Shown in pieces: positions 19,540 to 40,383 of a DNA stretch of 64,000 nt (the stretch's first letter is position 1; every line of letters starts with the position of its first letter). The position numbers were made by a program, and so were the translations under genes. The notes under the pieces were generated by a model that was not told the DNA's origin, did no database searches, and saw only the letters and a program-made list of their open reading frames with translations. Source of the DNA: an uncultured delta proteobacterium (GTDB lineage: Bacteria > Myxococcota_A > UBA9160 > SZUA-336); NCBI GenBank assembly GCA_963704165.1, contig CAVPHD010000007.1:151150-215149 (forward strand), read 5' to 3'.

Positions 19540-19571
19540 GTTTCGACGCTAGCCCCCGAAGTGAGTGGCAC

Positions 19572-19589
19572 CTATGATGCTCATCATAG
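19572..19589. promoter_or_regulatory. Palindromic operator CTATGATG-CT-CATCATAG in a divergent intergenic region
   Basis: Perfect 8-bp inverted repeat; core TATGAT-N4-ATCATA recurs at 29743-29758. Confidence 0.7.
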
Positions 19590-19642
19590 CCAGCGATCGG
19601 CGCGGCTGCTGCGTTGGCGAGACGCACAAGGAGGAACGGGCC

Positions 19643-20995
19643 ATGACGATGGATTCCGAGACGCGAAAGCTGCTCGAAGAGGCCTGGTCGACGCCACTCT
19701 TCGAGTCGATCTTCACCCGACGCTCGCGGCGCTTCGGATTGGGCATGGAGATCCGGCACGGGCCCAATGCGTTCAAGTCGCAGGCCGAGCCGCTCCCCCT
19801 CTCGTTCGAGGAGGAAGCGCTGCTCTGCATGGCGGCGACGGGGATGTCCGGCATGAACCTCGCCGACATGCCCCACACGCGGAAGGAAGAGCTCGCTCCG
19901 GGAGAGGTCTGGGACGGCAACTGCAACACGATGCTCGAATACTCGGGCCGGACGTTCCCGAGCCCCTGCGGATCGCACGCCACGGAGCTCTTCTACGCCA
20001 ACGACGAGGGCACCTACGTCGTCAAGATCCGCGGCACGCACCCCGAGCGGATGCAGGAAATCTCACGGATGGACGATCTCGAGAAGCTCGTCGCGGTCTT
20101 CTCCGATCGGCGCGTGCAGATCTCGAGCGAGCGGATCGATCTGCCGCACTCCTCGCCGGCCTTCATGTCGTTCAACACCTGGAATGCGAACCAGCCGGGC
20201 ACGACGCTCTTCATGCCGGTCTGTGACGTCACCGAGGAGCTGATCAACGGGCTCATGCTCTTCCTCGAGCAAGGGAACTACCCCGTCGACATCGAGGACG
20301 GCATGAAGCCGCTCGGTTGCGAGAAGTGGGTGAAGCAGGGGCTGGCGACGATCCCGGTGCCGTACCAGAGCCTCGAGCCGCTCGTCGCCTTCGGCGCGTC
20401 GAGCGTCGAGGTCGGCTTCATGTCGCAGAATCTGCTGCTCGCCGAGACGGCGCTCGGCCTGGGCGGTTGGCCGTTCGGCGGTTTCAACGCGATGATGGCG
20501 CTGGGTGGCACACCTTTGTGTCGCGGTCTCGGTTTCCGCTTCGAGACGGCGGAGCACGGACCGCTCGCGGGGTTTCCATATCCGATCGGGAAGGACGGCG
20601 TATTCGAGACCCACCATCCCTACTACTTCAACGGATCGATCGACGACGCCGTCGATGACGTGATCGAGCGGAAGTGGGGCTCGGCTGGGATCTTCCATCC
20701 CTCGAACGCGGAGAACGCGCCGTACAAGAAGCCGGGGCAGATGGAGGTCGCCATCCCGCGCACGGATCCGGCGATCGTGCAGTGCACGAAGGACATCCTG
20801 AACGCGGTCTGGCGCAAGTGGGGGCGCTTTCCGGCGTTCGCCGACCCGTGCCTGCTGACGGTGATGGTGCAGGCGCAGCATCTCGACTGCGATTTCTACG
20901 ACGCCTACTACCGCGACGGCGCCTACACCGAACGGCATCGCCGACACCTCGAGCGCTGGCACTCGAAGTCGCGTCGCGCGCTGCGAGCCGCCTGA
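19643..20995 (+). CDS. Large nitroreductase-fold / SagB-like FMN oxidoreductase of unknown function
   Basis: RRSRRF, RTFPSP and SQNLLL...LGLGGWPFGG resemble nitroreductase/SagB FMN-binding motifs; RBS AGGAGG. Confidence 0.6.
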   Translation: MTMDSETRKLLEEAWSTPLFESIFTRRSRRFGLGMEIRHGPNAFKSQAEPLPLSFEEEALLCMAATGMSGMNLADMPHTRKEELAPGEVWDGNCNTMLEYSGRTFPSPCGSHATELFYANDEGTYVVKIRGTHPERMQEISRMDDLEKLVAVFSDRRVQISSERIDLPHSSPAFMSFNTWNANQPGTTLFMPVCDVTEELINGLMLFLEQGNYPVDIEDGMKPLGCEKWVKQGLATIPVPYQSLEPLVAFGASSVEVGFMSQNLLLAETALGLGGWPFGGFNAMMALGGTPLCRGLGFRFETAEHGPLAGFPYPIGKDGVFETHHPYYFNGSIDDAVDDVIERKWGSAGIFHPSNAENAPYKKPGQMEVAIPRTDPAIVQCTKDILNAVWRKWGRFPAFADPCLLTVMVQAQHLDCDFYDAYYRDGAYTERHRRHLERWHSKSRRALRAA

Positions 20996-20996
20996 G

Positions 20997-21227
20997 ATGA
21001 AAGTCGAGTCGCAAGCGGGCCGCTTCATTCTCTCGTTCGACAAGATGGAGCCGGGCGAGGGCGAGATCATCATCAGCGGAAAGATGGGCGTGTGGGATGC
21101 GCGCACCCACATGACGCTCGGCGAGTTCACGCGACTCCTGGGGATGACGCTGCGGCCGAGGATGCTCGCCTTCCTCGTGCGCGCGGTTCTCGGCTTCGGT
21201 GGCGGCAAGGCCTCCCGAACGGGCTGA
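20997..21227 (+). CDS. Small hypothetical protein
   Basis: Starts 1 nt after the previous stop; 76 aa. Confidence 0.6.
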   Translation: MKVESQAGRFILSFDKMEPGEGEIIISGKMGVWDARTHMTLGEFTRLLGMTLRPRMLAFLVRAVLGFGGGKASRTG

Positions 21228-21462: not shown

Positions 21463-22910
21463 ATGTCGTCAGGTGACGCCGGGATCCGTGCATCGCTAGA
21501 GCTACGTGCGGCTTCGCGCCGCTGGCTCGCCCTGTCGCTCGTCGTGCTCGTGCTCGCGGGACTGTTCGCGCTTGCAGTCGTCGTCGGCCGCATGCCGCCC
21601 TTCGATCGCTTCGTGACCGACCCCGTCTTCTTCAAGCGCTGTCTGATCGCTCACGTCAACATGGCGCTCGTCGCGTGGTTCTACTCGATCACGGCCGCGC
21701 TCTTCTTCCTGCTCCCATCGCAGGGCCGAGCGGGCTGGCTCGCCCGGCACTCGGTCCACGTCGCTGGGTTGGGAATCGGGATGCAGCTGGCCGGCGCGGG
21801 GGTCCCCGGCGCGGCTCCCTTGCTCTCGAACTACATTCCGACGCTCGATCACTGGGTCTTCCAGTCCGGTCAGCTGGTCTTCGGGCTCGGCGTCCTGCTG
21901 AGCTTCGTGGACCGCCGATTCCTTCCCGGTGCCGAGCCGCTCGTCGTCGTGCCGCTGCCGCCCGGCGTGGTCAGCGGTCTTCGCGCAACGCGCGCGGCAC
22001 TCCTGCTCGCCGCGCTCACGTTCGGCTTCACCTGGTTGCGGGCGCCGAGTGGTCTCGAACCGGCCGTGTACGCGGATCTGCTCGTGTGGGGACTCGGGCA
22101 CGTTCTTCAGCTCGTGTGCGCGCTCGCGATGATCTCGCTCTGGCTCTGGCTGCTCGAGACCGTTCTCGGCGAGGCGCCCGTGAGCGCGCTCGCGTCGCGC
22201 TGGCTCTTTGCGGCGCTGGTTCTGCCGTGGTCGTTCGCGCCCGTGTTCGCGCTCGCGGGCACGAGCAGCATGGCGTACCAGGTCGGCTTCACCGAGCTCA
22301 TGCGTTGGTGCATCGTTCCGGTCGTCGCGATCTTTCTGATCTTGTCCCTTTCCAAGGTGGTGCGGCGTGGCGCGCAGGCCGGATCTCCGCCGCGTCGCTT
22401 TCGGACCCACATCTTTCGGCTATCCTCGTCAGCGGGTTCCTGACTGTGCTCGGATTCGGGCTCGGCGCGGCAATCCGCGGGCAGAGCACGATGGTCCCAG
22501 CTCACTATCACGCCTCGGTCGGAGCGATCACGGTTTCGTTCATGGCGGGAAGCTACCTGTTGCTTCCGGTGCTCGGTCTGAAGCTTCCCGAAGGGTGGTT
22601 GCGCCGCGTGAGAGCTTGGCAACCCACCGTCTACGGAACTGGAATGCTCGTGCTCGCCGGTGGCTTCGCGCTCGCGGGCGCGCACGGGATGGGGCGCAAG
22701 ATCTACGGAGCCGAGCAGGCCGCGCGCGGCACGGCAGAGACGCTGGGTCTGGGAATGATGGGTATCGGAGGCTTCGCCTCGATCGCGGGGGGAATCATGT
22801 TCCTCGCCGTCGTCGGCGTCGCTTGGATGAGTCGTGTCGGAGTCGGGTCGGCGTCGGAAAAGCTGGCCGCGTCGAGGAGGTTGGACTATGGCGCCGAAGG
22901 ACCCGGGTGA
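21463..22910 (+). CDS. Degenerate heme-copper oxidase subunit I-like membrane protein (frameshift near 22360)
   Basis: About 12 hydrophobic segments with AHVN, WGLGHVLQ and PAHYH, echoing the subunit I His motifs. Confidence 0.7.
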
Positions 22911-23043
22911 CATCCACCCGATTCAGAAACTCATGGACAATCCGTGGCTGCTGCTTTTTCTCGGGGTGCTCATCCCGACCGTCTCATTCACCCTCTGGGC
23001 GTGGTACGAGCTGTACGTACTGCCGCACGCAACACTGCCCTGA
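22888..23043 (+). CDS. Small single-TM subunit (subunit IIa-like)
   Basis: 51 aa, QKLMDNPWLLLFLG, immediately before the CuA subunit. Confidence 0.7.
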   Translation: MAPKDPGDIHPIQKLMDNPWLLLFLGVLIPTVSFTLWAWYELYVLPHATLP

Positions 23044-23058
23044 GCGAGGACTGACACC

Positions 23059-23586
23059 ATGAGTATCCATCCGCCCGCGGCAGGCTGGTTCAAGGCACCC
23101 CACGGAGCCGAGCGGCTCTGGATCGGGCTCGCGATGTGTTGGTGCTTGATCATGTCGATCGCGATGCCGTACTGGCACTTCTACGGCAAGCAGAACAGCA
23201 CGGGCGAGGCCTACCGGGTCGCGCCCGGGGACTTCGCGCAGCGCGTGCAGCGCTTCGTTTCCACCAATCAAGTGGGCGAGCTGAACGGTGTTCCCATCGT
23301 GCAGCCGGCGCCCGGCGGGGACGCGTATCTGCAGGCCCAGATGTGGTCCTGGTTTCCGGTCCTGAAGCTCAAGAAGGGGCAGACCTACCGGGTGCACGTC
23401 TCGTCGATCGACCTGCAGCATGGCTTCTCGCTTCACCCACTGAACATGAACTTCCAGGTCCTTCCGGGCTACGACCACGTGCTCACCCTGACTCCGACGA
23501 GCTCGGGGGAGTTCACGATCATCTGCAACGAGTTCTGCGGCATTGGCCACCACGCGATGGCCGGGCGCATCCTCGTCGAGGAGTAG
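23059..23586 (+). CDS. Heme-copper oxidase subunit II (single TM plus CuA domain)
   Basis: QHGFS...CNEFCGIGHHAM CuA motif. Confidence 0.93.
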   Translation: MSIHPPAAGWFKAPHGAERLWIGLAMCWCLIMSIAMPYWHFYGKQNSTGEAYRVAPGDFAQRVQRFVSTNQVGELNGVPIVQPAPGGDAYLQAQMWSWFPVLKLKKGQTYRVHVSSIDLQHGFSLHPLNMNFQVLPGYDHVLTLTPTSSGEFTIICNEFCGIGHHAMAGRILVEE

Positions 23587-23590
23587 AGTG

Positions 23591-25345
23591 ATGACGACCA
23601 CCACGATTGGCGCAGACGTGACTCTCGGCGAGACAGCCGGAAACCACCCGCGGGGGGAGGTGCGGGCCTGCGACACGACTGGCCTGCCGATCTGCCTGAC
23701 CGCGCAGCGCTTCATCAAGCTTCACGCGGTCGTCGCCGTCGTCTTTCTGCTGATCGGTGGCGTTGCCGCGATTCTGATCGGGCTCACTCGCTGGCCGGCC
23801 GTGCACCTTCTTCCCGCGGATTGGTACTACCGGCTGGTGACGCTCCACGGTCTGGACATGCTGATCGTGATGATCCTGAACTTCGAGATCGCGATTCTCT
23901 ATTTCGCGGGATCGTTCCTGCTGAACAGCCGGCTGTTCTCGAAGACGCTGTCGTGGATCACGTTCGCGCTGATGCTGATCGGCGCGGTGATGTGCAACGC
24001 GACGGTGCTGATGGGCAAGGCCGATGTCATGTACACGTCGTACGTACCGCTTCGCGCAGACCCGCAGTTCTATCTGGGATTGATCCTGTTCACCGTCGGG
24101 ACGCTGCTGGGCGTGATCAATTTCTTCGGCACGGTCTACATCGCCAAGCGCGACCACACCTACGAGGGCTCCGTGCCGCTCGTCACGTTCGGTGCGATTG
24201 CCGCGGCGATCATCGCGGTCGCTACGCTCCTGCACGCGGCCACGACGATGATCCCGACCTATCTGTGGTCGATCAACGTGCTCTCCTCGATCGACCCGGA
24301 GTGGTACCGCGTCACGTGGTGGGGACTCGGGCACATGAGCCAGCAGGTGAACGTCTGCGCGATGGTCTCGGTCTGGTATCTGCTCGGTACTCTCACGGTC
24401 GGCTCGAAGCCTCTGTCCGAGGCCGTCTGCAGGGGCGCGTTCCTGCTCTACATCCTGTTCATCAACCTCGCCTCGGCCCACCACGAGTTGGTCGATCCTG
24501 GCGTCAGCGCGAGCTGGAAGATCTGGAACACCTCGTACGCGATGTACCTCGCGGTGCTTGCGTCGATGATCCACGGCTTCACGGTCCCGGCGTCGATCGA
24601 GGTGGCGATGCGGGCGAAGGGCTTCAAGCGCGGTCTCTTCGGCTGGCTGGCCAACGCGCCGTGGTCCAACCCGGGCTTTTCGGGGTTCTTCCTGTCGCTG
24701 GTGATCTTCGGCTTCGGCGGCGGCATCACCGGAGTCACCCTCGGGACGCAGCAGATCAACATCATGGCGCACAACACGCTGCGCATCCCGGGCCACTTCC
24801 ACGTCACCGTCGTCGGGGGCACGGCGCTCGCGTTCATGGCGGTGACGTACTACGTCGTGCCGCTGGTCTTCCAACGTGAGTTCTACGCGAAGGCGTTGTG
24901 CCGTCTGCAGCCGTACCTCTTCGGGATCGGAATCACGACGATGGCGATCGGGATGTCGTTCGCCGGCTCCTACGGTGTTCCGCGCCGCCACTGGGACGTC
25001 GAGTTCAGCGGCTCGCCGTTCGCGCCCGGATTCGATTCCGGTGCGCACGTGATGCTCGGCCTGCTCGGCGTCGGCGCCGTCATCGCCTTCACGGCTGTGC
25101 TTCTCTTCGTCCTGCTCGTGGTCGCGGCCGTGTTCTTCGGCCGTTCGAATGCGGGCCGTCCGATGGAGCCCTGGCACGTCGAGCGTGGCGTGACCGCCGC
25201 GCCGAGGTCCTCGCACGGCGCGGGCGAGGAGGAAGACCACCGCACGCCGGGAACACTGGTGCTCGTGGGCGTGTTTCTGGCGTCGTTCGCGGTCTACTAC
25301 TTCGCGAACTGGCTCTGGCTCTCGGACGTCTGGCACGTTCGATGA
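23591..25345 (+). CDS. Heme-copper oxidase subunit I, B-family-derived; probable eNOR-type nitric oxide reductase
   Basis: Six His ligands (LHG, GHMSQQ, AHH, GHFH); Gln at His+4 where O2 reductases have the cross-linked Tyr. Confidence 0.82.
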   Translation: MTTTTIGADVTLGETAGNHPRGEVRACDTTGLPICLTAQRFIKLHAVVAVVFLLIGGVAAILIGLTRWPAVHLLPADWYYRLVTLHGLDMLIVMILNFEIAILYFAGSFLLNSRLFSKTLSWITFALMLIGAVMCNATVLMGKADVMYTSYVPLRADPQFYLGLILFTVGTLLGVINFFGTVYIAKRDHTYEGSVPLVTFGAIAAAIIAVATLLHAATTMIPTYLWSINVLSSIDPEWYRVTWWGLGHMSQQVNVCAMVSVWYLLGTLTVGSKPLSEAVCRGAFLLYILFINLASAHHELVDPGVSASWKIWNTSYAMYLAVLASMIHGFTVPASIEVAMRAKGFKRGLFGWLANAPWSNPGFSGFFLSLVIFGFGGGITGVTLGTQQINIMAHNTLRIPGHFHVTVVGGTALAFMAVTYYVVPLVFQREFYAKALCRLQPYLFGIGITTMAIGMSFAGSYGVPRRHWDVEFSGSPFAPGFDSGAHVMLGLLGVGAVIAFTAVLLFVLLVVAAVFFGRSNAGRPMEPWHVERGVTAAPRSSHGAGEEEDHRTPGTLVLVGVFLASFAVYYFANWLWLSDVWHVR

Positions 25346-26281
25346 CTCGCGCTGCTCAGAGTGGAAGAGCCGCTCGATTCTTCGACGGACGGCAGCTTTC
25401 CCGCATTTGCGCTCGGCGTCCTCGTGTTCTGGGAGATCCTGCTCCTGGCGATGCTGATCGCCCCGATCGGGCGAATCGGGTCTGCGGGGGTTCGCCGACG
25501 AGTTCCGCATCTGGTGCTTCGGGTACGACCCGTCGACCGGGCGCATGAATCCCGGATTGGTGATGGCGATGACGAGCCCGCCGATCGTGATCGGGTCCGG
25601 TGCTCGCGCTGGTCTGGTGGCAGCCGCTGCGGGAGCTGATGGTGCGCCGCCGCGGCTGGCTGCGGCCGTGCGTGGCGAGCGCGCTCACCGTCGCCATCGC
25701 CGCGTCGGGGCTCGTGGCGCTCGCTCGAGAGCCCGCCCGAGAGGATCTGCCCTTTCCAGCGGAGTCTCTGCGCACGGAGATACGCTCCCCCGAGCTGCGG
25801 CTCGTGAATCAGAACGGCGATACGGTCGATCTCGCCGAGCTGCGCGGAAATGTCGTGGTGCTCACGGCCATATACTCGTCGTGTCCGCTGAGCTGCCCAT
25901 TGATCCTCGGTCAGGCGAAGGCGGCGATCGCCGACGTCCCGGCGACGCTGCGCGGCGATCTGCAGGTGATCGCGGTCAGCATGGATCCCGAGCAGGATTC
26001 GCCCGAGGTACTCGCGGCGCTCGCTCGCCAGCACGCGGTCGAGGCTCCGGAGTACTCACTGGTCACGGGCGATCCGGTCGAAGTCGAGCGCATCCTCGAC
26101 GAGCTCGGGATCTCACGCACGCGGGATCCCGGAGACCGGAGTGATCGATCACGCGAATCTCTTCTTGCTCGTCGATCGCGCTGGCCGGATCGCCTACCGC
26201 CTCACGCTCGGCGAACGGCAACAGCGCTGGCTGACATCGGCGCTGGAGTTCCTGCTTCGTGAGGAGCCCGGTGGAGCGTGA
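25342..26281 (+). CDS. SCO1/SenC copper chaperone with N-terminal membrane region (several frameshifts)
   Basis: LVNQNG, YSSCPLSCP, VSMDPEQD, then IDHANLFLLVDR in the next frame. Confidence 0.85.
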
Positions 26282-28361
26282 TGCCATCGGCTTGGCCTCG
26301 GAGGTCGCCCATGGTGGCGAGGCCAAGGTCCGCGGCGAGGGTGTGCTGCGCGCACTCGAGCGACCGTTCCTCGCCTTCGATCGCGTGCTCTCTCGCGCGC
26401 TACCGGATGCGCTGAACCCGTTTCTCCAGACGGGGGCCGTGGCGGTGACGGCGACCCTCGTCGCCACGATCACCGGCGTGCTGCTGCTGTTCTGGTACCG
26501 GCCGAGCGTGCACCTGGCGTACTCCTCGGTGGCGGCGATGTCCGACTCCGCGTGGAGCGCGGGCCTGCTGCGCTCGCTGCATCGCTACAGCTCAGATGCC
26601 GCGCTCTTCTTCGCTCTCGTGCACGCTGCGCGGCTCTTCTTCGAGCGACGCTTCGCCGGTGCGCGCTGGGTTGCCTGGGTGACCGGAGTGGCCTCGCTCC
26701 TGGTGGTCTGGGTTCTCGGCTGGACCGGCTACTGGCTGGTCTGGGACGTGCGCGCGAAGTACGTCGCGGTAGAGACGGCGCGAGTTCTCGACGTGCTGCC
26801 GATTTTCGCCGATCCGATGGGGCGCTCGTTCCTCTTCGAGGAGGGAATCAACTCTCTCCTGTTCTTCGTCGTGTTCTTCTTCCACATGCTCGCCCCGCTG
26901 GCCCTCGCGTTCCTGCTCTGGCTGCATCTGACCCGAACCGCGCGCGCGCGCTTTCTCACGCGCCTGCCGATGACGATCTGGGTCGTCGGGACGCTCTCAC
27001 TGCTCTCTGTGGCGTATCCGGCGACGAACGCCGAGCCCGCTCGAATGACCGCACGCGCCGAGTCGTTCGGCATGGACTGGTGGTACCTGTTTCCGCTCGC
27101 GCTCGGGCAGCGGCTCTCGGGCGGCGCGATCTGGGCGGTCTGCCTGATGGGCGGAGCGCTCGCCGTCTCCGCGCCGTGGACGCTGCGCAAGCGCGTCGGC
27201 CGGAGCGCGAAGGTCGATCCTGCGCGCTGCAACGCCTGCGAGCAGTGTTACGTGGACTGTCCCTACGAGGCGATCTCGATGATCCCGCGCGAGAACCCCG
27301 AGAAACGGAAGAGGTACGCGCTCGAGGCGTTCGTAGATCCCGCGAAGTGCGTCTCGTGCGGGATCTGTGTCGCTTCGTGCAACTCGATCGGCACGGACCT
27401 TCCGGGATTCCCGCTTCGCGACCAGCGACAGCGCGTTTCGACCTGGCTCGACCAGGTGAAGGCGAGCGGCGAGAGTGCGGGTGTCGCGTTCGTCTGCGCG
27501 CAGTCGGCCGCAGCCGGGCTCGAGATCGAATCGGAGACGGGATTGTGCAGTGAGCTGCCCGGCTGGCGCGTTCTCGAGGTCCCTTGTGCCGGATGGGTGC
27601 ACTCGATGTCGATCGAACTCGCCTTGCGACGGGGAGCCAGGAAAGTCCTGATCGCGAGCTGTCCGCCCGGGTCGTGTCACTTCCGTGAAGGACCGGAATT
27701 CCTCGATCAGCACCTGGCGGGAACTCGGCCCCCGTCCATCCGCGAGAAGTACGTCCCCGGGGATGCCGTCGAGGTCGTCTGGTTCGGCCGCGGAAGCGAG
27801 CGAGAGCTCGTTCGCGCGGCGAGAGGCGCGCTCGCGGACGAGCGTCGGCCAGCGGCCGCGGTGCCCGGACGATCCCTTGCCGGCGTCGCATCGGTCGTCC
27901 TCGCGGTCGCCGTCAGCGCCATCATCGGTGTTGTCAGCGATTGGGGCTACGCCGCGCACGCGTCCCCGGGAGCGGAGCTCGTGGTCACGTTCAAGCACCC
28001 CGGAGAGCGAAGCGAAGTCTGCCGCGAGCGGACACCGGAAGAGCTCGAGCGACTCCCGCAGCACATGCGCGAGGCGAAGGTCTGCGAGCGGGCGCGTGCT
28101 CCCGTGCGTCTGCGTGTGAACGTCGACGGCGCACACCGGATCGCACAGACCTACGCTCCGAGCGGGATCTGGAGCGACGGCTCGAGCGTCGCGGTGGTAC
28201 CGTTGCGCGTCACGCCGGGGGTGCACGAGATCCGGGTCGAGATCGGAGATAGTCACGATCCCACGGAATGGACCCATGTCAGCGAGCAGACGCTCGAGTT
28301 CGACGAGAGCGTCCGGCGGGTGATCGCGTTCGATCGATCGTCCGGATTCAAGGTGCACTAG
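26271..28361 (+). CDS. Fusion of cytochrome b (PetB-like), 2x[4Fe-4S] ferredoxin, MvhD/FlpD-like [2Fe-2S] domain, TM helix and soluble C-terminal domain
   Basis: His pairs SLHRY..LVH and FFHM..WLH; CNACEQCYVDCP, CVSCGICVASC; FVC..VPCAG..SCPPGSCHFREG. Confidence 0.85.
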   Translation: MERDAIGLASEVAHGGEAKVRGEGVLRALERPFLAFDRVLSRALPDALNPFLQTGAVAVTATLVATITGVLLLFWYRPSVHLAYSSVAAMSDSAWSAGLLRSLHRYSSDAALFFALVHAARLFFERRFAGARWVAWVTGVASLLVVWVLGWTGYWLVWDVRAKYVAVETARVLDVLPIFADPMGRSFLFEEGINSLLFFVVFFFHMLAPLALAFLLWLHLTRTARARFLTRLPMTIWVVGTLSLLSVAYPATNAEPARMTARAESFGMDWWYLFPLALGQRLSGGAIWAVCLMGGALAVSAPWTLRKRVGRSAKVDPARCNACEQCYVDCPYEAISMIPRENPEKRKRYALEAFVDPAKCVSCGICVASCNSIGTDLPGFPLRDQRQRVSTWLDQVKASGESAGVAFVCAQSAAAGLEIESETGLCSELPGWRVLEVPCAGWVHSMSIELALRRGARKVLIASCPPGSCHFREGPEFLDQHLAGTRPPSIREKYVPGDAVEVVWFGRGSERELVRAARGALADERRPAAAVPGRSLAGVASVVLAVAVSAIIGVVSDWGYAAHASPGAELVVTFKHPGERSEVCRERTPEELERLPQHMREAKVCERARAPVRLRVNVDGAHRIAQTYAPSGIWSDGSSVAVVPLRVTPGVHEIRVEIGDSHDPTEWTHVSEQTLEFDESVRRVIAFDRSSGFKVH

Positions 28362-28371
28362 GAGAGAACCC

Positions 28372-29709
28372 ATGACGACGAGCGCCCAGCTCATCGCGAC
28401 TCTCGCGCCGCGCCTCTCGCGCCTTCGCGACTACGTCGATCTGACGCGTCCCGGCATCCTCGTCGGCGTGCTGCTGACGGCAATGCCGGGACTCGCGCTG
28501 GACCCGGTCTCGCGCCCGGACATCGGCACGGTTCTCCTGGTGTTGCTCGGAGTTGCGCTCGTCGGGGGCGGATCGAGCGCGCTCAATGCATGGTGGGAGC
28601 GCGACGCCGATGCGCGCATGGCGCGAACACGCGGTCGGCCGCTGCCATCGGGGCGCCTGCCCGCGCCGCGCGCGCTGATCTTCGGAGTCGCGTCCTCGAT
28701 TGCCGGTCTGGCCGCCCTCGGGCTGGCCGGTGGTTGGCTTCCCGCTGCGATCGGCGCAGCGACGCTTCTTCACTACCTGCTCGTCTACACCGTCTGGCTG
28801 AAGCCGCGCAGCGCATGGAATACGCTGGTCGGCGCCTTGGCGGGATCCACGGCACCGCTGATCGCCGATGCGGCCGTACACGGACGCGTCGGCGTCTGGG
28901 GCCTGTCCCTTTTCGCGATCGTGCTCTTCTGGCAGCCACCGCATGTCTTCGCGATCGCCTTGTACCGGCGCGAGGAGTACGCCGCCGCGCCGTTTCGGAT
29001 GCTGCCGGCGGTCGTCGGCGACGTCGCGACGCGACGCTTCAGTCTCGCCTTCGCGTTCGCGCTGATCCCGATCTCGATGCTGCCGTTCTTCGGGGGTGTG
29101 TTCGGCGCTGGCTACGCGGTGGTGGCCGCGCTCGGGGGCGTCGCGTTCAGCGCTTCGATCGTCGCTTCGATGCGGGCGCGAACGGATGCCGCCGATCGGC
29201 GCGTGTTCATCGTGTCGCTGTCGTACCTCGCAGCTCTGTTCGGGGCGATGATGCTCGAGATCGGAGCCAGAGGAGTGGGAATGGGCCCGCGCGAGCTGCT
29301 ACCGCACGTGAACGGCGCGCTCAACGCCGCGATCACCGCACTCCTGATCGCCGCATTCGTCGCGATCCGCCGGGGCCGACGCGAGACCCACCGACGGCTG
29401 ATGGTCTCGGCCGTATCTCTCGGGACCGCGTTCGTCGGCCTCTACGTCCTCCAGACCGCGCTGCTCGGCCACCAGCGCTTCCCCGGAGACGATTGGGTGC
29501 GAACGCTCTTCCTGTCGGTGCTGACGACGCACACGATCCTCGCGGTCGTCGTCGTCCCGCTGGTGGCCCGCGCTCTGTTTCTGGGGCTTCGAGAGCGCTT
29601 CGTCGAGCATCGCCGCATCGTCCGCGTGGCCTATCCCATCTGGCTCTACGTCGCGCTGACGGGGCTGTTCATCTACTGGATGAACAACTTCGTGCGACCG
29701 GGATCCTAG
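28372..29709 (+). CDS. ctaB: Heme O synthase (protoheme IX farnesyltransferase) in frame with a DUF420/CtaM-like domain
   Basis: ERDADARMARTRGRPLPSG, YTVWLK, FWQPPH; C-terminal HRRLM...HTILA..HRRI..YPIWLYVALTG. Confidence 0.88.
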   Translation: MTTSAQLIATLAPRLSRLRDYVDLTRPGILVGVLLTAMPGLALDPVSRPDIGTVLLVLLGVALVGGGSSALNAWWERDADARMARTRGRPLPSGRLPAPRALIFGVASSIAGLAALGLAGGWLPAAIGAATLLHYLLVYTVWLKPRSAWNTLVGALAGSTAPLIADAAVHGRVGVWGLSLFAIVLFWQPPHVFAIALYRREEYAAAPFRMLPAVVGDVATRRFSLAFAFALIPISMLPFFGGVFGAGYAVVAALGGVAFSASIVASMRARTDAADRRVFIVSLSYLAALFGAMMLEIGARGVGMGPRELLPHVNGALNAAITALLIAAFVAIRRGRRETHRRLMVSAVSLGTAFVGLYVLQTALLGHQRFPGDDWVRTLFLSVLTTHTILAVVVVPLVARALFLGLRERFVEHRRIVRVAYPIWLYVALTGLFIYWMNNFVRPGS

Positions 29710-33105: not shown

Positions 33106-34722
33106 ATGCGCGAGCAGAGCCCGCTGATCCTCGGTGATCTGGTCCGGATCCGTGCGAACGAGAAGCCCGATCTCGACGTCCTGACGTTCGAGCACCTCTC
33201 GCTCGACGAGGGCCGCACGCCGGACGAGGTGCGGACCTACTCCGGGCTCGCGACCCATGCGAACCGGATCGCAGCCACTCTCATCGCGCGCGGGCTCGCG
33301 CGCGGTGACCGCTTCGGGTTGATGATGCGAAATCACCCGGAGTACGTGGAGACGATGACCGCCGCCTCGATCACGGCGACGGTCTTCGTGCCGATCGACC
33401 CACGCACGCGTGGCGAGAAGCTCGCGTTCTTCCTCGGTCGGGCGGGCTGCAAGGGCATCGTCTGTGCGGACTATTGCCTGCCCGCCATCGAAGCCGTGCG
33501 CGGCTCGCTCCCCGACCTCGAATGGATCCTGGCGCTCGACACGGGCGAGGGCGACGACGCCGTGCCTCTGTCCTCGGTGAAAGGGGTGGAGTCGCTGCGC
33601 GAGGTCTTGTCGAAGCCGGTGCCGGGCGTCGATTCGCGCCTCGTCGACGCGAACGATCCCCTGCAGATCATCTACACCTCCGGCACCACGGGAGATCCGA
33701 AGGGCGTGGTGTTTCCGAACGCGCGATTCGGCGGCTTCGCGATGCTCGGCGCATTGCTCGGCTATCAGGCCGACGAGCGGCCCTACACGGGTCTCTCGCT
33801 CACCCACGGAAACGCCCAGGCCGTGACGCTGGGTCCATCGCTGTCGATGGGGCTGCGCGCGGTCTTCAGTCGCAGGTTCACGAAGTCGCGGCTCTGGGAC
33901 GTCTGTCGCTTGCACGGGTGCACCACGTTCTCTCTGCTCGGCGGCATGTCGACCGCGATCTACAGCGAACCGCTGCGGAAGAACGACGCCGACAACCCCG
34001 TGCGCAAGGTGATCAGCGCGGGCATGCCCGCTGCGATCTGGGCGTCGTTCGAGAAGCGCTTCAACGTGAAGATCTTCGAGTGGTACGGCGCCGTCGAGGG
34101 CGGACTCGCATTCAAGCCGATTGGCGAGGGTCCGATCGGCTCGTTCGGGAAGTCGGCGCCGGGGCTCGACATGCGCGTGCTCGACGACAACGACCGCGAG
34201 TGCGCGCCCGGCGAGATCGGCGAGATCTGCTCCCGCCCGTCGAGCGGCGCGTCGGCCGAGGTGGAGTACTTCGAGAACGCCGAAGCGTCCGCGCAGAAGA
34301 CCCGTGGCGGCTGGCTGCGCAGCGGTGACATGGGTTCGCGCGACGCGGAGGGGTGGTTCTTCTTTTCGCATCGAAAGGGCGGCGGCATCCGTCACAACGG
34401 CGACTTCGTGAATGCCGGATTCGTCGAGAAGCTGATCGCCGAGCAGCCGAGCGTCTCCGATGTCTTCGTCTACGGCGTGCCGGCCGCATCTGGATCGCCC
34501 GGCGAGAAGGACGTGGTCGCCGCGATCGTCCCGCAATCCGGCGCGACGTTCGACCCGGCCGCGATCTATGCCGCGTGCCGCGCCGGTCTCGAGTCGAATT
34601 TCGTTCCGTCCTACCTTCAGGTCGTCGACGAGATTCCGAAGACCGCGTCCGAGAAGCCGCAGGAGCGATTTCTGCTCGATCGCTTCGCACCCGATGCGAA
34701 GAATGTCTACGTCGAGCGGTAA
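33106..34722 (+). CDS. AMP-dependent acyl-CoA ligase (CaiC-like)
   Basis: YTSGTTGDPKG, YGAVEG, SGD, PKTASEK. Confidence 0.9.
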   Translation: MREQSPLILGDLVRIRANEKPDLDVLTFEHLSLDEGRTPDEVRTYSGLATHANRIAATLIARGLARGDRFGLMMRNHPEYVETMTAASITATVFVPIDPRTRGEKLAFFLGRAGCKGIVCADYCLPAIEAVRGSLPDLEWILALDTGEGDDAVPLSSVKGVESLREVLSKPVPGVDSRLVDANDPLQIIYTSGTTGDPKGVVFPNARFGGFAMLGALLGYQADERPYTGLSLTHGNAQAVTLGPSLSMGLRAVFSRRFTKSRLWDVCRLHGCTTFSLLGGMSTAIYSEPLRKNDADNPVRKVISAGMPAAIWASFEKRFNVKIFEWYGAVEGGLAFKPIGEGPIGSFGKSAPGLDMRVLDDNDRECAPGEIGEICSRPSSGASAEVEYFENAEASAQKTRGGWLRSGDMGSRDAEGWFFFSHRKGGGIRHNGDFVNAGFVEKLIAEQPSVSDVFVYGVPAASGSPGEKDVVAAIVPQSGATFDPAAIYAACRAGLESNFVPSYLQVVDEIPKTASEKPQERFLLDRFAPDAKNVYVER

Positions 34723-34738
34723 CCGGGCCGAGAGCGAG

Positions 34739-36139
34739 ATGTCTCGTCCGCCGATCGAGCTCGACCCGGAGCACGCCGAAGCCATCTTGATGCGCTACGC
34801 GGGCACCGGGCCGCGCTACACGAGCTACCCGACCGCGCCGGTCTGGACCGAAGCGTATGGTGCGGGAAGCTTCGAGGACGACCTGGCCGCGAGCTCACCG
34901 GGAGCCGAGCTCTCGGTCTACGTCCACGTTCCGTTCTGCACCAGCCTCTGTCACTTCTGCGCGTGCAATCGCGTGATCACGCGGAAGGCCGAGCTCCCGG
35001 CGCGATACCTCGACACGATCGAACGCGAGATCGGACGCGTGCGAGCGGCGCTCCCCGGCGAACGACCGGTCGTGCAGCACCACTGGGGTGGAGGAACGCC
35101 GACCCATCTCGATCCGGCGCAGGTCAAGCGGCTCTTCCGCGCCGTGAACGACGCGTTTCCGGCGGTGGAGGGCGCGGAGATCTCGCTCGAGGTGGACCCC
35201 CGCGTCACCGGCGACGCTCACATCGATGCGCTGCGCGAATGCGGATTCAACCGCATCTCGCTCGGCGTGCAGGACTTCGCGCCGCGCGTGCAGGCTGCGA
35301 TCCATCGCGAGCAGAGCCCGGAGCTGACCGGGCGACTCGTGGAACGCGCACGCGCGAGCGGCTTCGAGAGCGTGAACCTCGACCTGATCTACGGACTGCC
35401 GTTTCAGACCCTCGAATCGACTTCCCAGACGCTCGACGAGGTGCTCGCGATCGCTCCGGATCGGATCGCGCTCTACGCGTACGCGCACGTCACGTGGGTT
35501 GCGAAGCAGCAGCGCGGTTTCGAGCGACAGGACCTGCCGGCTCCCGGGCTGCGGTTGCGAATTCAGCTCGCCGCGATCCGGCGTCTGCTCGAGGCGGGCT
35601 ACGTGTACATCGGAATGGACCACTTCGCGCGACCCGACGATGCGCTCGCCGACGCGGTCCGCGAGCGAACGCTGCGGCGCAACTTCATGGGCTACACGAC
35701 GCGCGCGGGGGTCGACATGATCGGCCTGGGTCCGAGCGCGATCAGCGAACTTTCCCGGAGCTACGCGCAGTCCGTTCGGGAGCTCGAGCCCTGGCACGAG
35801 GCGATCGACTCCGGTCGCTTGGCGACGCTGCGCGGGCATCGGCTCTCGCGCGACGACGTCGAGCGGCGCTGGGTGATCGGCGAGATCATGTGCCACGAGG
35901 AGGTCCGCGCGGCCGAGTTCCGCGAGCGCTTCGGTCTCGAATTCGCGCAGCGCTTCGCGCGGGAACGTGCGGCGCTCGAGCCTTTCGTCGCCGACGGGCT
36001 CGTCGCGTTCGAACCCGAAGGCGGACTGCGCGTGACGCCGCTCGGGCGGCTGGTTCTGCGGAACGTGGCGATGGTCTTCGACGCGTATCTCGAAGGACAG
36101 CGCTCTGGAGATCGCCCGCTCTTCAGCCAGACCGTCTGA
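34739..36139 (+). CDS. hemN: Oxygen-independent coproporphyrinogen III oxidase (radical SAM)
   Basis: GPRYTSYPTA, HVPFCTSLCHFCAC, GGGTPT, GMDHFA, RNFMGY. Confidence 0.95.
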   Translation: MSRPPIELDPEHAEAILMRYAGTGPRYTSYPTAPVWTEAYGAGSFEDDLAASSPGAELSVYVHVPFCTSLCHFCACNRVITRKAELPARYLDTIEREIGRVRAALPGERPVVQHHWGGGTPTHLDPAQVKRLFRAVNDAFPAVEGAEISLEVDPRVTGDAHIDALRECGFNRISLGVQDFAPRVQAAIHREQSPELTGRLVERARASGFESVNLDLIYGLPFQTLESTSQTLDEVLAIAPDRIALYAYAHVTWVAKQQRGFERQDLPAPGLRLRIQLAAIRRLLEAGYVYIGMDHFARPDDALADAVRERTLRRNFMGYTTRAGVDMIGLGPSAISELSRSYAQSVRELEPWHEAIDSGRLATLRGHRLSRDDVERRWVIGEIMCHEEVRAAEFRERFGLEFAQRFARERAALEPFVADGLVAFEPEGGLRVTPLGRLVLRNVAMVFDAYLEGQRSGDRPLFSQTV

Positions 36140-39912: not shown

Positions 39913-40383
39913 ATGCGCGGCGACCCGGCAGTGATCGAGGCGTTGAACGGCATCCTGACCGCCGAACTCACCGCGATCAACCAGTACTTCATCCACTCGA
40001 AGATGTGCCGCAACTGGGGCTTCCTCCGGCTCGCCAAGCACAACCACCACGAATCGATCGAAGAGATGAAGCACGCCGATTCGGTCATCGAGCGGATCCT
40101 CTTTCTCGACGGCCTGCCGAACATGCAGCGCCTCGGAGCGATTCGCGTGGGTGAGACCGTGCCCGAGCAGTTCAAGGTCGATCTCGCTCTCGAGCTGGAC
40201 GCGGTCAAGCGCTACAACGCGGCGATCGCGCTCTGCGCGGAGAAGAGCGACGCGGGAACCCGCGAGATGCTCGAGGACCTGCTGAAAGACGAAGAGAGCT
40301 CGGTCGATTGGCACGAGACGCAGCTCGATCTGATCGAGAAGATCGGCGCGGAGCTCTATCTGGCGGAGCAGCTCGGGGAATAG
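39913..40383 (+). CDS. bfr: Bacterioferritin
   Basis: [29 protein letters not shown]. Confidence 0.95.

What the first reader, a model, noticed from the sequence alone, without database searches (positions are those of the whole stretch)
23059..25345. Apparent cytochrome c oxidase is probably an eNOR-type nitric oxide reductase
Seen: subunit I keeps all six His ligands, but helix VI reads WWGLGHMSQQVN, with Gln at His+4. Its partner is a single-TM CuA subunit II. Known: A- and B-family O2 reductases carry the His-Tyr cross-link here (HPxVY), cNOR/qNOR have Glu, and the B-family-derived eNOR family (characterised in Rhodothermus marinus) lacks the Tyr and uses CuA. Inference: this organism respires or detoxifies NO with an enzyme that pipelines would mislabel as an oxidase.
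Basis: partly seen in the sequence, partly recalled or inferred. Interest (0 to 1): 0.8.

Follow-up and report, generated by a model that had tools for sequence, protein, structure and literature searches.

The report
eNOR nitric oxide reductase operon
These two genes look like a cytochrome oxidase but carry the sequence signature of eNOR, an already described enzyme family, so they likely turn nitric oxide into the greenhouse gas N2O instead of reducing oxygen, which makes this a correct call but an ordinary member of a known family.

Summary
Subunit I (23591-25345) keeps six His ligands and has Gln252 where Thermus ba3 has the cross-linked Tyr237. It and CuA subunit II match all five eNOR marker residues of Murali et al. 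2024 (Q252, Y263, S325, H328, II-E18). It falls in a Gln clade (100/99) apart from Tyr-bearing B-family oxidases. It is 72-75% identical to proteins from two genomes that the authors score eNOR=1 (linked by name). The genome also holds nirS, nirK, nosZ and a separate A-family oxidase; no true cNOR/qNOR was found (84% complete). The operon extends beyond the finding: a subunit-I paralogue lacking two metal His, a small subunit, SCO, a cytochrome b-ferredoxin-MvhD fusion and CtaB. A NO-dismutase-like gene lies in the denitrification island on another contig. Caveats: activity is untested, the R. marinus sequence was not obtained, an invariant helix-VII Tyr287 is unexplained, and five frameshifts hit accessory genes (likely assembly errors). 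eNOR is a described, common family, and this scan has noted such operons and the paralogue before on other genomes. New member of a known kind.

The parts
21463..22910 (+). Degenerate paralogue of subunit I (probably the 'eNOR scaffold protein'). Keeps the equivalents of both heme-ligand sets and the helix-VI His; lacks the helix-VII His-His. One-base frameshift near 22365 in this assembly.
   Evidence: HHalign 100%, E 1e-42, to subunit I. The model of the intact L001 copy matches ba3 subunit I, TM 0.75. Present in 63 of 63 loci with enough flank. Frameshift seen against G007.
22888..23043 (+). Small hydrophobic protein, 51 aa, likely the subunit IIa equivalent
   Evidence: Open frame and conserved motif in 58 of 71 loci. 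A similar small gene precedes subunit II in named plasmid loci. The IIa role is inferred from position.
23059..23586 (+). eNOR subunit II: single TM plus CuA cupredoxin domain; K-channel entry Glu18
   Evidence: CuA ligands C156, E158, C160, H164, M167 in 75 of 75 homologues; H121 and E18 in 74 of 75.
23591..25345 (+). eNOR subunit I, 584 aa: H86/H404 (low-spin heme), H402 (high-spin heme), H248/H297/H298 (non-heme metal), Q252 in place of the cross-link Tyr, K-channel Y263, S325, H328
   Evidence: The AlphaFold model (pLDDT 78.7) best matches ba3 structures.
24332..24346 (+). Codons His248 to Gln252 of the active-site helix VI
   Evidence: Read directly from the sequence
25342..26281 (+). Membrane-anchored SCO1/SenC copper chaperone, likely for CuA loading; four single-base frameshifts in this assembly
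   Evidence: Pfam SCO1-SenC. Present in 71 of 71 loci. Indels at 25389, 25472, 25593, 26131 against G007.
26271..28361 (+). Di-heme cytochrome b/b6 fused to a 2x[4Fe-4S] ferredoxin, an MvhD/FlpD-like domain, a TM helix and a soluble C-terminal domain
   Evidence: Pfam. Four His and eight ferredoxin Cys in 65 of 65 homologues. Present in 69 of 69 loci. The only PF00033 match in the genome. The start at 26271 is inferred from a ribosome-binding site; the ORF list gives 26259.
28372..29709 (+). Heme o synthase (CtaB) fused to DUF420
   Evidence: TIGR01473 above cut-off; Pfam UbiA and DUF420. CtaB within the flank in 33 of 59 loci.

Best explanation
The two genes encode an eNOR-family heme-copper enzyme that likely reduces NO to N2O, not O2 to water, as the NO step of this bacterium's predicted nitrite-to-N2 pathway. 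Shown: the residues, the clade, the operon, and the presence of nirS, nirK, nosZ and a separate Tyr-bearing A-family oxidase in the genome. Inferred from the R. marinus enzyme (PMC11214002): electrons enter at CuA in subunit II from a periplasmic carrier and pass through the low-spin heme (H86/H404) to the high-spin heme (H402) and the three-His metal site. Two NO are joined there in a two-electron reaction that needs no tyrosyl radical, which is why Tyr is replaced by Gln. Inferred and untested in any eNOR: protons come from the cytoplasm through a ba3-like K-channel (II-E18, Y263, S325, H328, Q252), so the reaction would conserve energy by charge separation. SCO likely loads CuA. CtaB, with CtaA elsewhere in the genome, likely supplies heme a. 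The His-His-less paralogue most likely handles heme during assembly. The cytochrome b-FeS fusion most likely links the quinol pool to the system.
For: All five Dataset S1 markers are present at a constant +7 offset in subunit I: Q245/Y256/S318/H321 become Q252/Y263/S325/H328, and II-E21 becomes E18. Y263, S325 and H328 are in 200 of 200 homologues. The Gln clade of 17 rows has support 100/99 against 10 Tyr-bearing B-family rows. L026 (72%) and L010 (75%) come from records named Glo_12 and CAADGG01; GTDB genomes of those names are scored eNOR=1, and GLO-12 also B1=0. Own genome: nirS-type cd1, nirK above cut-off, clade II nosZ with nosD; A-family oxidase with GHPEVY. Among 30 relatives, nosZ is in 8 of 9 with this enzyme against 5 of 21 without, and nirS in 6 of 9 against 1 of 21. 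Among 49 genomes with close homologues, 37 have nirS or nirK and 46 have nir or nosZ; 26 of the 37 have no cNOR/qNOR/NOD-like match. On a T. thermophilus plasmid the homologue sits beside an annotated nitrite reductase.
Against: No activity or expression data exist for this protein. Only one eNOR has been assayed, and its sequence could not be obtained here, so its distance from this subclade is unknown. An invariant helix-VII Tyr287 exists in the whole clade. No FNR/DNR box lies upstream: 9 of 59 loci against 122 of 1180 shuffles. The operon is not in the genome's denitrification island. Five frameshifts break the paralogue and SCO genes, and nosZ and the NOD-like gene are also split. Three of 49 genomes have neither nir nor nosZ matches. 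No narG or napA above cut-off was found.
Confidence: 0.9

Rival explanations
1. It is an O2 reductase whose cross-linked tyrosine has moved to helix VII (Tyr287), as happened in the C family.
For: Tyr287 is in 200 of 200 close homologues and all 17 Gln-clade rows, and in none of the 10 Tyr-bearing B-family rows. CuA subunit II, SCO and CtaB are typical oxidase parts.
Against: The C-family Tyr lies at HH-6 (CcoN of L140); Tyr287 lies at HH-10, one helical turn further from the metal site, and HH-6 is Ile in 200 of 200. R. marinus eNOR did not reduce O2, and the authors saw no migrated Tyr in their models (PMC11214002). The genome already has an A-family oxidase. The enzyme co-occurs with nir and nos genes. 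I could not measure distances on the model.
Confidence: 0.04
2. The operon is a real eNOR locus but is decaying in this strain and no longer yields active enzyme; NO would then be handled by the NOD-like enzyme.
For: One frameshift in the paralogue and four clustered in the SCO gene, relative to G007. nosZ and the NOD-like gene are also split.
Against: Subunits I and II, the cytochrome b fusion and CtaB are intact and 78-95% identical to G007. All five breaks are single-base indels, and unrelated genes on other contigs are broken too, as expected of an unpolished long-read assembly (inference from 12 contigs). Other SCO genes exist on C3 and C4.
Confidence: 0.04
3. It is an eNOR-like enzyme with some other substrate or product; the one assayed member does not represent this paralogue-bearing subclade.
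For: Only one member has been assayed (PMC11214002). This subclade is 44-57% identical to the other Gln-clade members in the tree and always carries the paralogue.
Against: Active-site and channel residues are identical to the assayed enzyme's listed markers. In 18 of 49 genomes, nir and nosZ are both present with no other NorB-like match, which leaves this enzyme as the obvious NO step.
Confidence: 0.02

Closest known systems
eNOR family of heme-copper NO reductases (Rhodothermus marinus enzyme; Murali et al. 2024, PMC11214002)
   Same: Gln for the cross-link Tyr, six His, K-channel residues Y/S/H and subunit II Glu, CuA subunit II, B-family-like fold, and a host with nirS, nirK and nosZ.
   Different: Host is an uncultured bacterium whose closest named relatives are Myxococcota/'Deltaproteobacteria' MAGs. 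No CtaA in the operon (it lies on contig C3). No napA found here. The host also has a NOD-like gene. Identity to the R. marinus protein was not measured.
Ferrigenium straubiae eNOR operon (bioRxiv 10.64898/2026.01.22.701106)
   Same: Lists eNOR I and II, heme o synthase, sco1, an 'eNOR scaffold protein of unknown function' and cytochrome b-[Fe-S] proteins; also formerly misannotated as coxAB.
   Different: There, two cytochrome b proteins, one with FAD/NADH-binding domains; here, one with an MvhD-like domain. That the 'scaffold' equals this paralogue is inferred from its name and place; sequences were not compared.
B-family O2 reductase, Thermus thermophilus ba3
   Same: Best solved relative by sequence (E 5e-44) and by fold; small gene-II-I order; K-channel only.
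   Different: ba3 has Tyr237 and Thr312 where this has Gln252 and His328; separate clade.
bNOR, sNOR, nNOR (other B-derived CuA NORs)
   Same: Tyr-less active site with a CuA subunit II.
   Different: They have Asn, Asn and Glu at the Tyr position and Thr or Asn/Thr at position 312 (Dataset S1); this has Gln and His.

Membership tests
eNOR | Gln in place of the helix-VI cross-link Tyr (R. marinus Q245 = ba3 Y237) | tested here: met
   Q252 aligns to ba3 Y237; marker from Dataset S1; 199 of 200 homologues
eNOR | K-channel residues S318, H321, Y256 in subunit I | tested here: met
   S325, H328, Y263, each in 200 of 200
eNOR | K-channel entry Glu in subunit II (E21) | tested here: met
   E18 just before the TM helix, 74 of 75; equivalence inferred from position
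eNOR | CuA-binding subunit II | tested here: met
   H121, C156, E158, C160, H164, M167
eNOR | Three His for the non-heme metal plus heme ligands | tested here: met
   H248, H297, H298, H402 in 200 of 200; H404 in 199; H86 in 198 with 2 gaps
eNOR | Placement in the B-related eNOR clade | tested here: met
   Gln clade 100/99, containing rows from records whose names match genomes scored eNOR=1. No R. marinus, bNOR, sNOR, gNOR or nNOR row was in the tree.
eNOR | Best score on the authors' eNOR HMM | not testable with these tools
   The HMMs are not in the libraries offered
eNOR | NO to N2O activity, no O2 reduction, heme As | not testable with these tools
   Needs protein. CtaB is in the operon and CtaA on C3.
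A/B-family O2 reductase | Tyr at His+4 of helix VI | tested here: not met
   Gln252; all 10 B-family comparison rows and the genome's own A-family protein have Tyr
C-family O2 reductase | Helix-VII Tyr six residues before His-His | tested here: not met
   Ile291 there; Tyr287 is at -10. ccoN model 31.7 bits against cut-off 583.
bNOR / sNOR | Asn at the Tyr position | tested here: not met
   Gln252
cNOR / qNOR / nNOR | Glu at His+4 | tested here: not met
   Gln252; cNOR-like rows show HLWVE and branch far away
gNOR | Asp replacing one active-site His; subunit II without CuA ligands | tested here: not met
   All three His and all CuA ligands present

The most novel reading that the evidence does not exclude
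The operon encodes its own heme-a building and electron-supply module: an oxidase-fold paralogue that keeps two heme sites but lost the metal site, working with CtaB and the cytochrome b-FeS fusion (relatives are fused to each). In this organism the NO-dismutase-like enzyme makes the O2 that heme-a synthesis needs, so a denitrifier would build its O2-dependent NO reductase in anoxia from self-made oxygen.
Probability: 0.07. Interest if true: 0.7.

Novelty: new member of a known kind. Interest (0 to 1): 0.25.

Why it matters
Correct annotation changes the reading of this genome. Without it, the organism looks like a nitrite reducer with two oxidases and no NO reductase. With it, the nitrite-NO-N2O-N2 chain is complete, with a possibly energy-conserving NO step. 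The same mislabelling affects many metagenome bins: 26 of 37 nitrite-reductase-bearing genomes tested had no other NorB-like match. This is the point Murali et al. already made, so a specialist would not be surprised. What stays open is the function of the His-His-less paralogue and the cytochrome b-FeS fusion, and why one genome keeps both an eNOR and a NOD-like enzyme for the same substrate.

Tried and rejected
R. marinus eNOR sequence: not obtained. The paper's alignment is a picture PDF, and a search seeded with a Rhodothermales homologue listed no protein named R. marinus among its best 120. Paralogue as a replacement for heme A synthase CtaA: not supported, since CtaA was found in 47 of 49 paralogue-bearing genomes (48 of 50 with the unpublished G059); mutual exclusion fails, though those CtaA genes may serve other oxidases. 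Obligatory link between eNOR and NOD: rejected; NOD-like matches were found in only 5 of 49 genomes, although 4 of 5 NOD-bearing relatives had eNOR. FNR/DNR control: no box upstream and no enrichment in relatives. Complex prediction of subunit I with the paralogue (L001 pair): no answer, score 0.00. Sequencing runs: none was listed, so expression and the frameshifts stayed unchecked. narG, napA, cytochrome bd and ccoN were not found above cut-off in the 84%-complete genome. The 44-row careful tree did not finish; only the quick tree was seen. No earlier notes of this scan on this genome fit the search. Paper searches for a function of the paralogue returned only Murali et al. and the Ferrigenium preprint.

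Full report
Observation. The window encodes a 175-aa subunit II at 23059-23586 with one predicted TM helix and a full CuA site. It is followed after 4 bp by a 584-aa subunit I at 23591-25345. Subunit I has H86, H248, H297, H298, H402 and H404, and helix VI reads WWGLGHMSQQVN. The best solved relative is T. thermophilus ba3 (E 4.7e-44). The alignment places Q252 on the cross-link Y237, Y263 on Y248, S325 on S309 and H328 on T312. An AlphaFold model (mean pLDDT 78.7) also matches ba3 best. In 200 homologues (120 database proteins and 80 genome loci, partly redundant), position 252 is Gln in 199, and Y263, S325 and H328 are invariant. The feature is real and selected.

Family. Dataset S1 of Murali et al. 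2024 (PMC11214002) lists, for R. marinus eNOR, Q245, Y256, S318, H321 and subunit II E21. bNOR and sNOR have Asn, and nNOR Glu, at the Tyr position. The window protein has the eNOR set at a constant +7 offset, with E18 in subunit II. A maximum-likelihood tree of 28 rows puts it in a 17-row Gln clade with support 100/99, against 10 Tyr-bearing B-family rows from named plasmids and the genome's own A-family protein. I dropped 16 of the 44 rows from that tree: 7 paralogues, 5 NOD-like, 3 cNOR-like and one long-branch Azospirillum row. It held no R. marinus, bNOR, sNOR, gNOR or nNOR reference. Two neighbours, L026 (72%, isolate Glo_12) and L010 (75%, contig prefix CAADGG01), match by name GTDB genomes that the authors score eNOR=1; GLO-12 is also B1=0. 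Both are classed there as Myxococcota UBA9160, so the host is likely in or near that class (inference).

The helix-VII test. CcoN from L140 has its Tyr six residues before His-His. A result that cuts the other way: Tyr287, ten residues before His-His, is invariant in the Gln clade and absent from the B-family rows. It lies one turn further from the metal site, at about the depth of ba3 Y244, which Dataset S1 leaves blank for eNOR. I read it as a proton-channel Tyr, but this is inference and was not measured on coordinates.

Genome context. G000 (3.87 Mb, 12 contigs, 84% complete) has three COX1-family genes: this one, an A-family oxidase with GHPEVY, and a qNOR-like gene on C4. The last has Thr, Arg, Asn and Gln where G. 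stearothermophilus qNOR has His328, Glu332, His560 and Glu581. The first three changes are the nod pattern of PMC10286720, and the Asn is diagnostic in PMC11549561; the Glu581 change is recalled as a nod feature. It is therefore NOD-like, not a true qNOR. The same 45-kb stretch holds clade II nosZ with nosD, cd1 nitrite reductase with heme d1 genes, and nirK above cut-off. No narG, napA, bd or ccoN reached cut-off. Among 30 relatives, 9 carry this enzyme. nosZ is in 8 of those 9 against 5 of 21 others, and nirS in 6 of 9 against 1 of 21 (Fisher p 0.002 and 0.001, overstated by kinship; nirK was not searched in this set). Among 49 of the 80 genomes behind my loci, 17 have nirS, 27 nirK, 38 nosZ and 46 at least one of these. 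12 have a cNOR/qNOR/NOD-like match, and 26 of the 37 with a nitrite reductase have none. That query would miss sNOR, gNOR and nNOR. The two genome sets may overlap. Within the 10-kb flanks of the 80 loci, strong nirS hits occur in 7, nirK in 4, nosZ in 3 and NOD in 1. The T. thermophilus plasmid homologue lies beside an annotated nitrite reductase. Against this, no FNR/DNR box was found upstream, and the operon here is on a different contig from the nir/nos island.

Operon. Seven genes overlap or nearly touch from 21463 to 29709: paralogue, small subunit, II, I, SCO, cytochrome b fusion, CtaB-DUF420. In loci with enough flank the paralogue is present in 63 of 63, subunit II in 73 of 73, SCO in 71 of 71, the cytochrome b fusion in 69 of 69 and CtaB in 33 of 59. 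These loci were picked by similarity to subunit I and are kin. They include L046 from the unpublished genome G059, which is also one row of alignment A1 and one of the 50 genomes; no conclusion depends on it. More distant Gln-clade loci (L101-L103, L125, L126) show no paralogue within the fetched range, and three of the five keep the cytochrome b fusion.

The paralogue aligns to subunit I at 100% probability and folds like ba3 subunit I (pLDDT 92.6, TM 0.75). It keeps H64, H217, H352 and H354, equivalent to H86, H248, H402 and H404, but has no helix-VII His-His. Among 129 of 150 cluster representatives (21 dropped for length), three of these His are in 129 and the fourth in 128. Relatives are fused to a CtaB-type UbiA domain, to cytochrome b or to TPR repeats. 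A heme-handling role is my best inference. It does not replace CtaA, which 47 of 49 such genomes have. The Ferrigenium preprint (10.64898/2026.01.22.701106) names an 'eNOR scaffold protein of unknown function' and cytochrome b-FeS genes in its eNOR operon. My searches found no paper giving it a function. The cytochrome b fusion keeps four His and eight ferredoxin Cys in 65 of 65 homologues and is the genome's only PF00033 match. Its FeS domains are predicted on the cytoplasmic side, so direct delivery to periplasmic CuA is not obvious.

Integrity. Against same-genus G007 there are five single-base frameshifts, one in the paralogue and four in SCO, and none in subunits I or II. The paralogue is one ORF in 65 of 67 loci (after removing two rows whose best hit was subunit I itself). 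nosZ and the NOD-like gene are also split. Assembly error is the likely cause, but this is unverified.

Mechanism and verdict. Shown: residues, clade, operon, gene inventory. Taken from the one assayed member (kcat 0.68 NO per s, no O2 reduction, heme As; PMC11214002): NO to N2O. Inferred by those authors and untested: proton uptake from the cytoplasm. I put 0.9 on a working eNOR-type NO reductase. The family is described and common (547 GTDB genomes), and relatives in this lineage were already scored. Earlier notes of this scan report eNOR operons and the paralogue on other genomes; these are leads, not support. Interest 0.25.

What I read. PMC11214002: parts 1-4 of 6 of the text, Datasets S1, S4 and S5 whole, and row searches in S6 (cut when stored) and S8. 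S2 was unreadable and the SI Appendix too large; it holds the operon maps and active-site alignments and may already describe the paralogue or Tyr287. Passages only: 10.1101/2021.10.15.464467, 10.64898/2026.01.22.701106, 10.1101/2023.11.21.568154, PMC11549561, PMC10286720; their supplements were not seen. The roles of individual His ligands, of SCO and of CtaA/CtaB are from established knowledge.

Noticed in passing
G000:C4:206699-208933 (L099:8777-10936): NO-dismutase-like qNOR relative (His328Thr, Glu332Arg, His560Asn, Glu581Gln against 3ayf), between a LuxR-type regulator and a ferredoxin, frameshifted near residue 625. Close matches in 5 of 30 relatives, 4 of which also have eNOR.
   Followed up: partly
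G000:C4:188000-229000 (L098-L100): Denitrification island: clade II nosZ (split) with nosD and ABC genes, nirS, heme d1 genes, nirK with SCO, a c554-like cytochrome, an NrfC/NrfD-like pair, a COX3-like protein and a hemerythrin.
   Followed up: partly
window 24449-24451 (Tyr287 of subunit I): Helix-VII Tyr invariant in the eNOR-type clade and absent from the B-family oxidases compared; possibly a relocated proton-channel residue.
   Followed up: partly
P0451, P0454, P0462: The His-His-less paralogue occurs fused to a CtaB-type prenyltransferase, to cytochrome b, or to TPR repeats.
   Followed up: partly
L103 (NZ_LR027520.1) and hits H3-H12: Thermus thermophilus plasmids carry a Gln-clade enzyme annotated as ba3 or cbb3 oxidase; in L103 it lies next to nitrite reductase genes and has Lys in place of the second helix-X His.
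   Followed up: partly
G000:C5:203551-207393: Molybdopterin-family-like ORF next to an NrfD-family gene, possibly alternative complex III; no separate bc1 cytochrome b was found.
   Followed up: no
window 19565-21227: A 476-aa ORF with no Pfam match and a 76-aa ORF directly upstream of the operon; found in only 1 of 80 loci and in G007, so not part of the conserved unit.
   Followed up: partly
window 34460-36139 and 39913-40383: HemN-type radical SAM gene and a bacterioferritin-like ORF (recognised from its sequence, recalled) downstream of the operon.
   Followed up: no
L134 (Azospirillum brasilense plasmid): B-related subunit I with unusual motifs (Leu at His+4, single His in helix VII, Tyr-Phe-His in helix X); long branch, left out of the final tree.
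   Followed up: no
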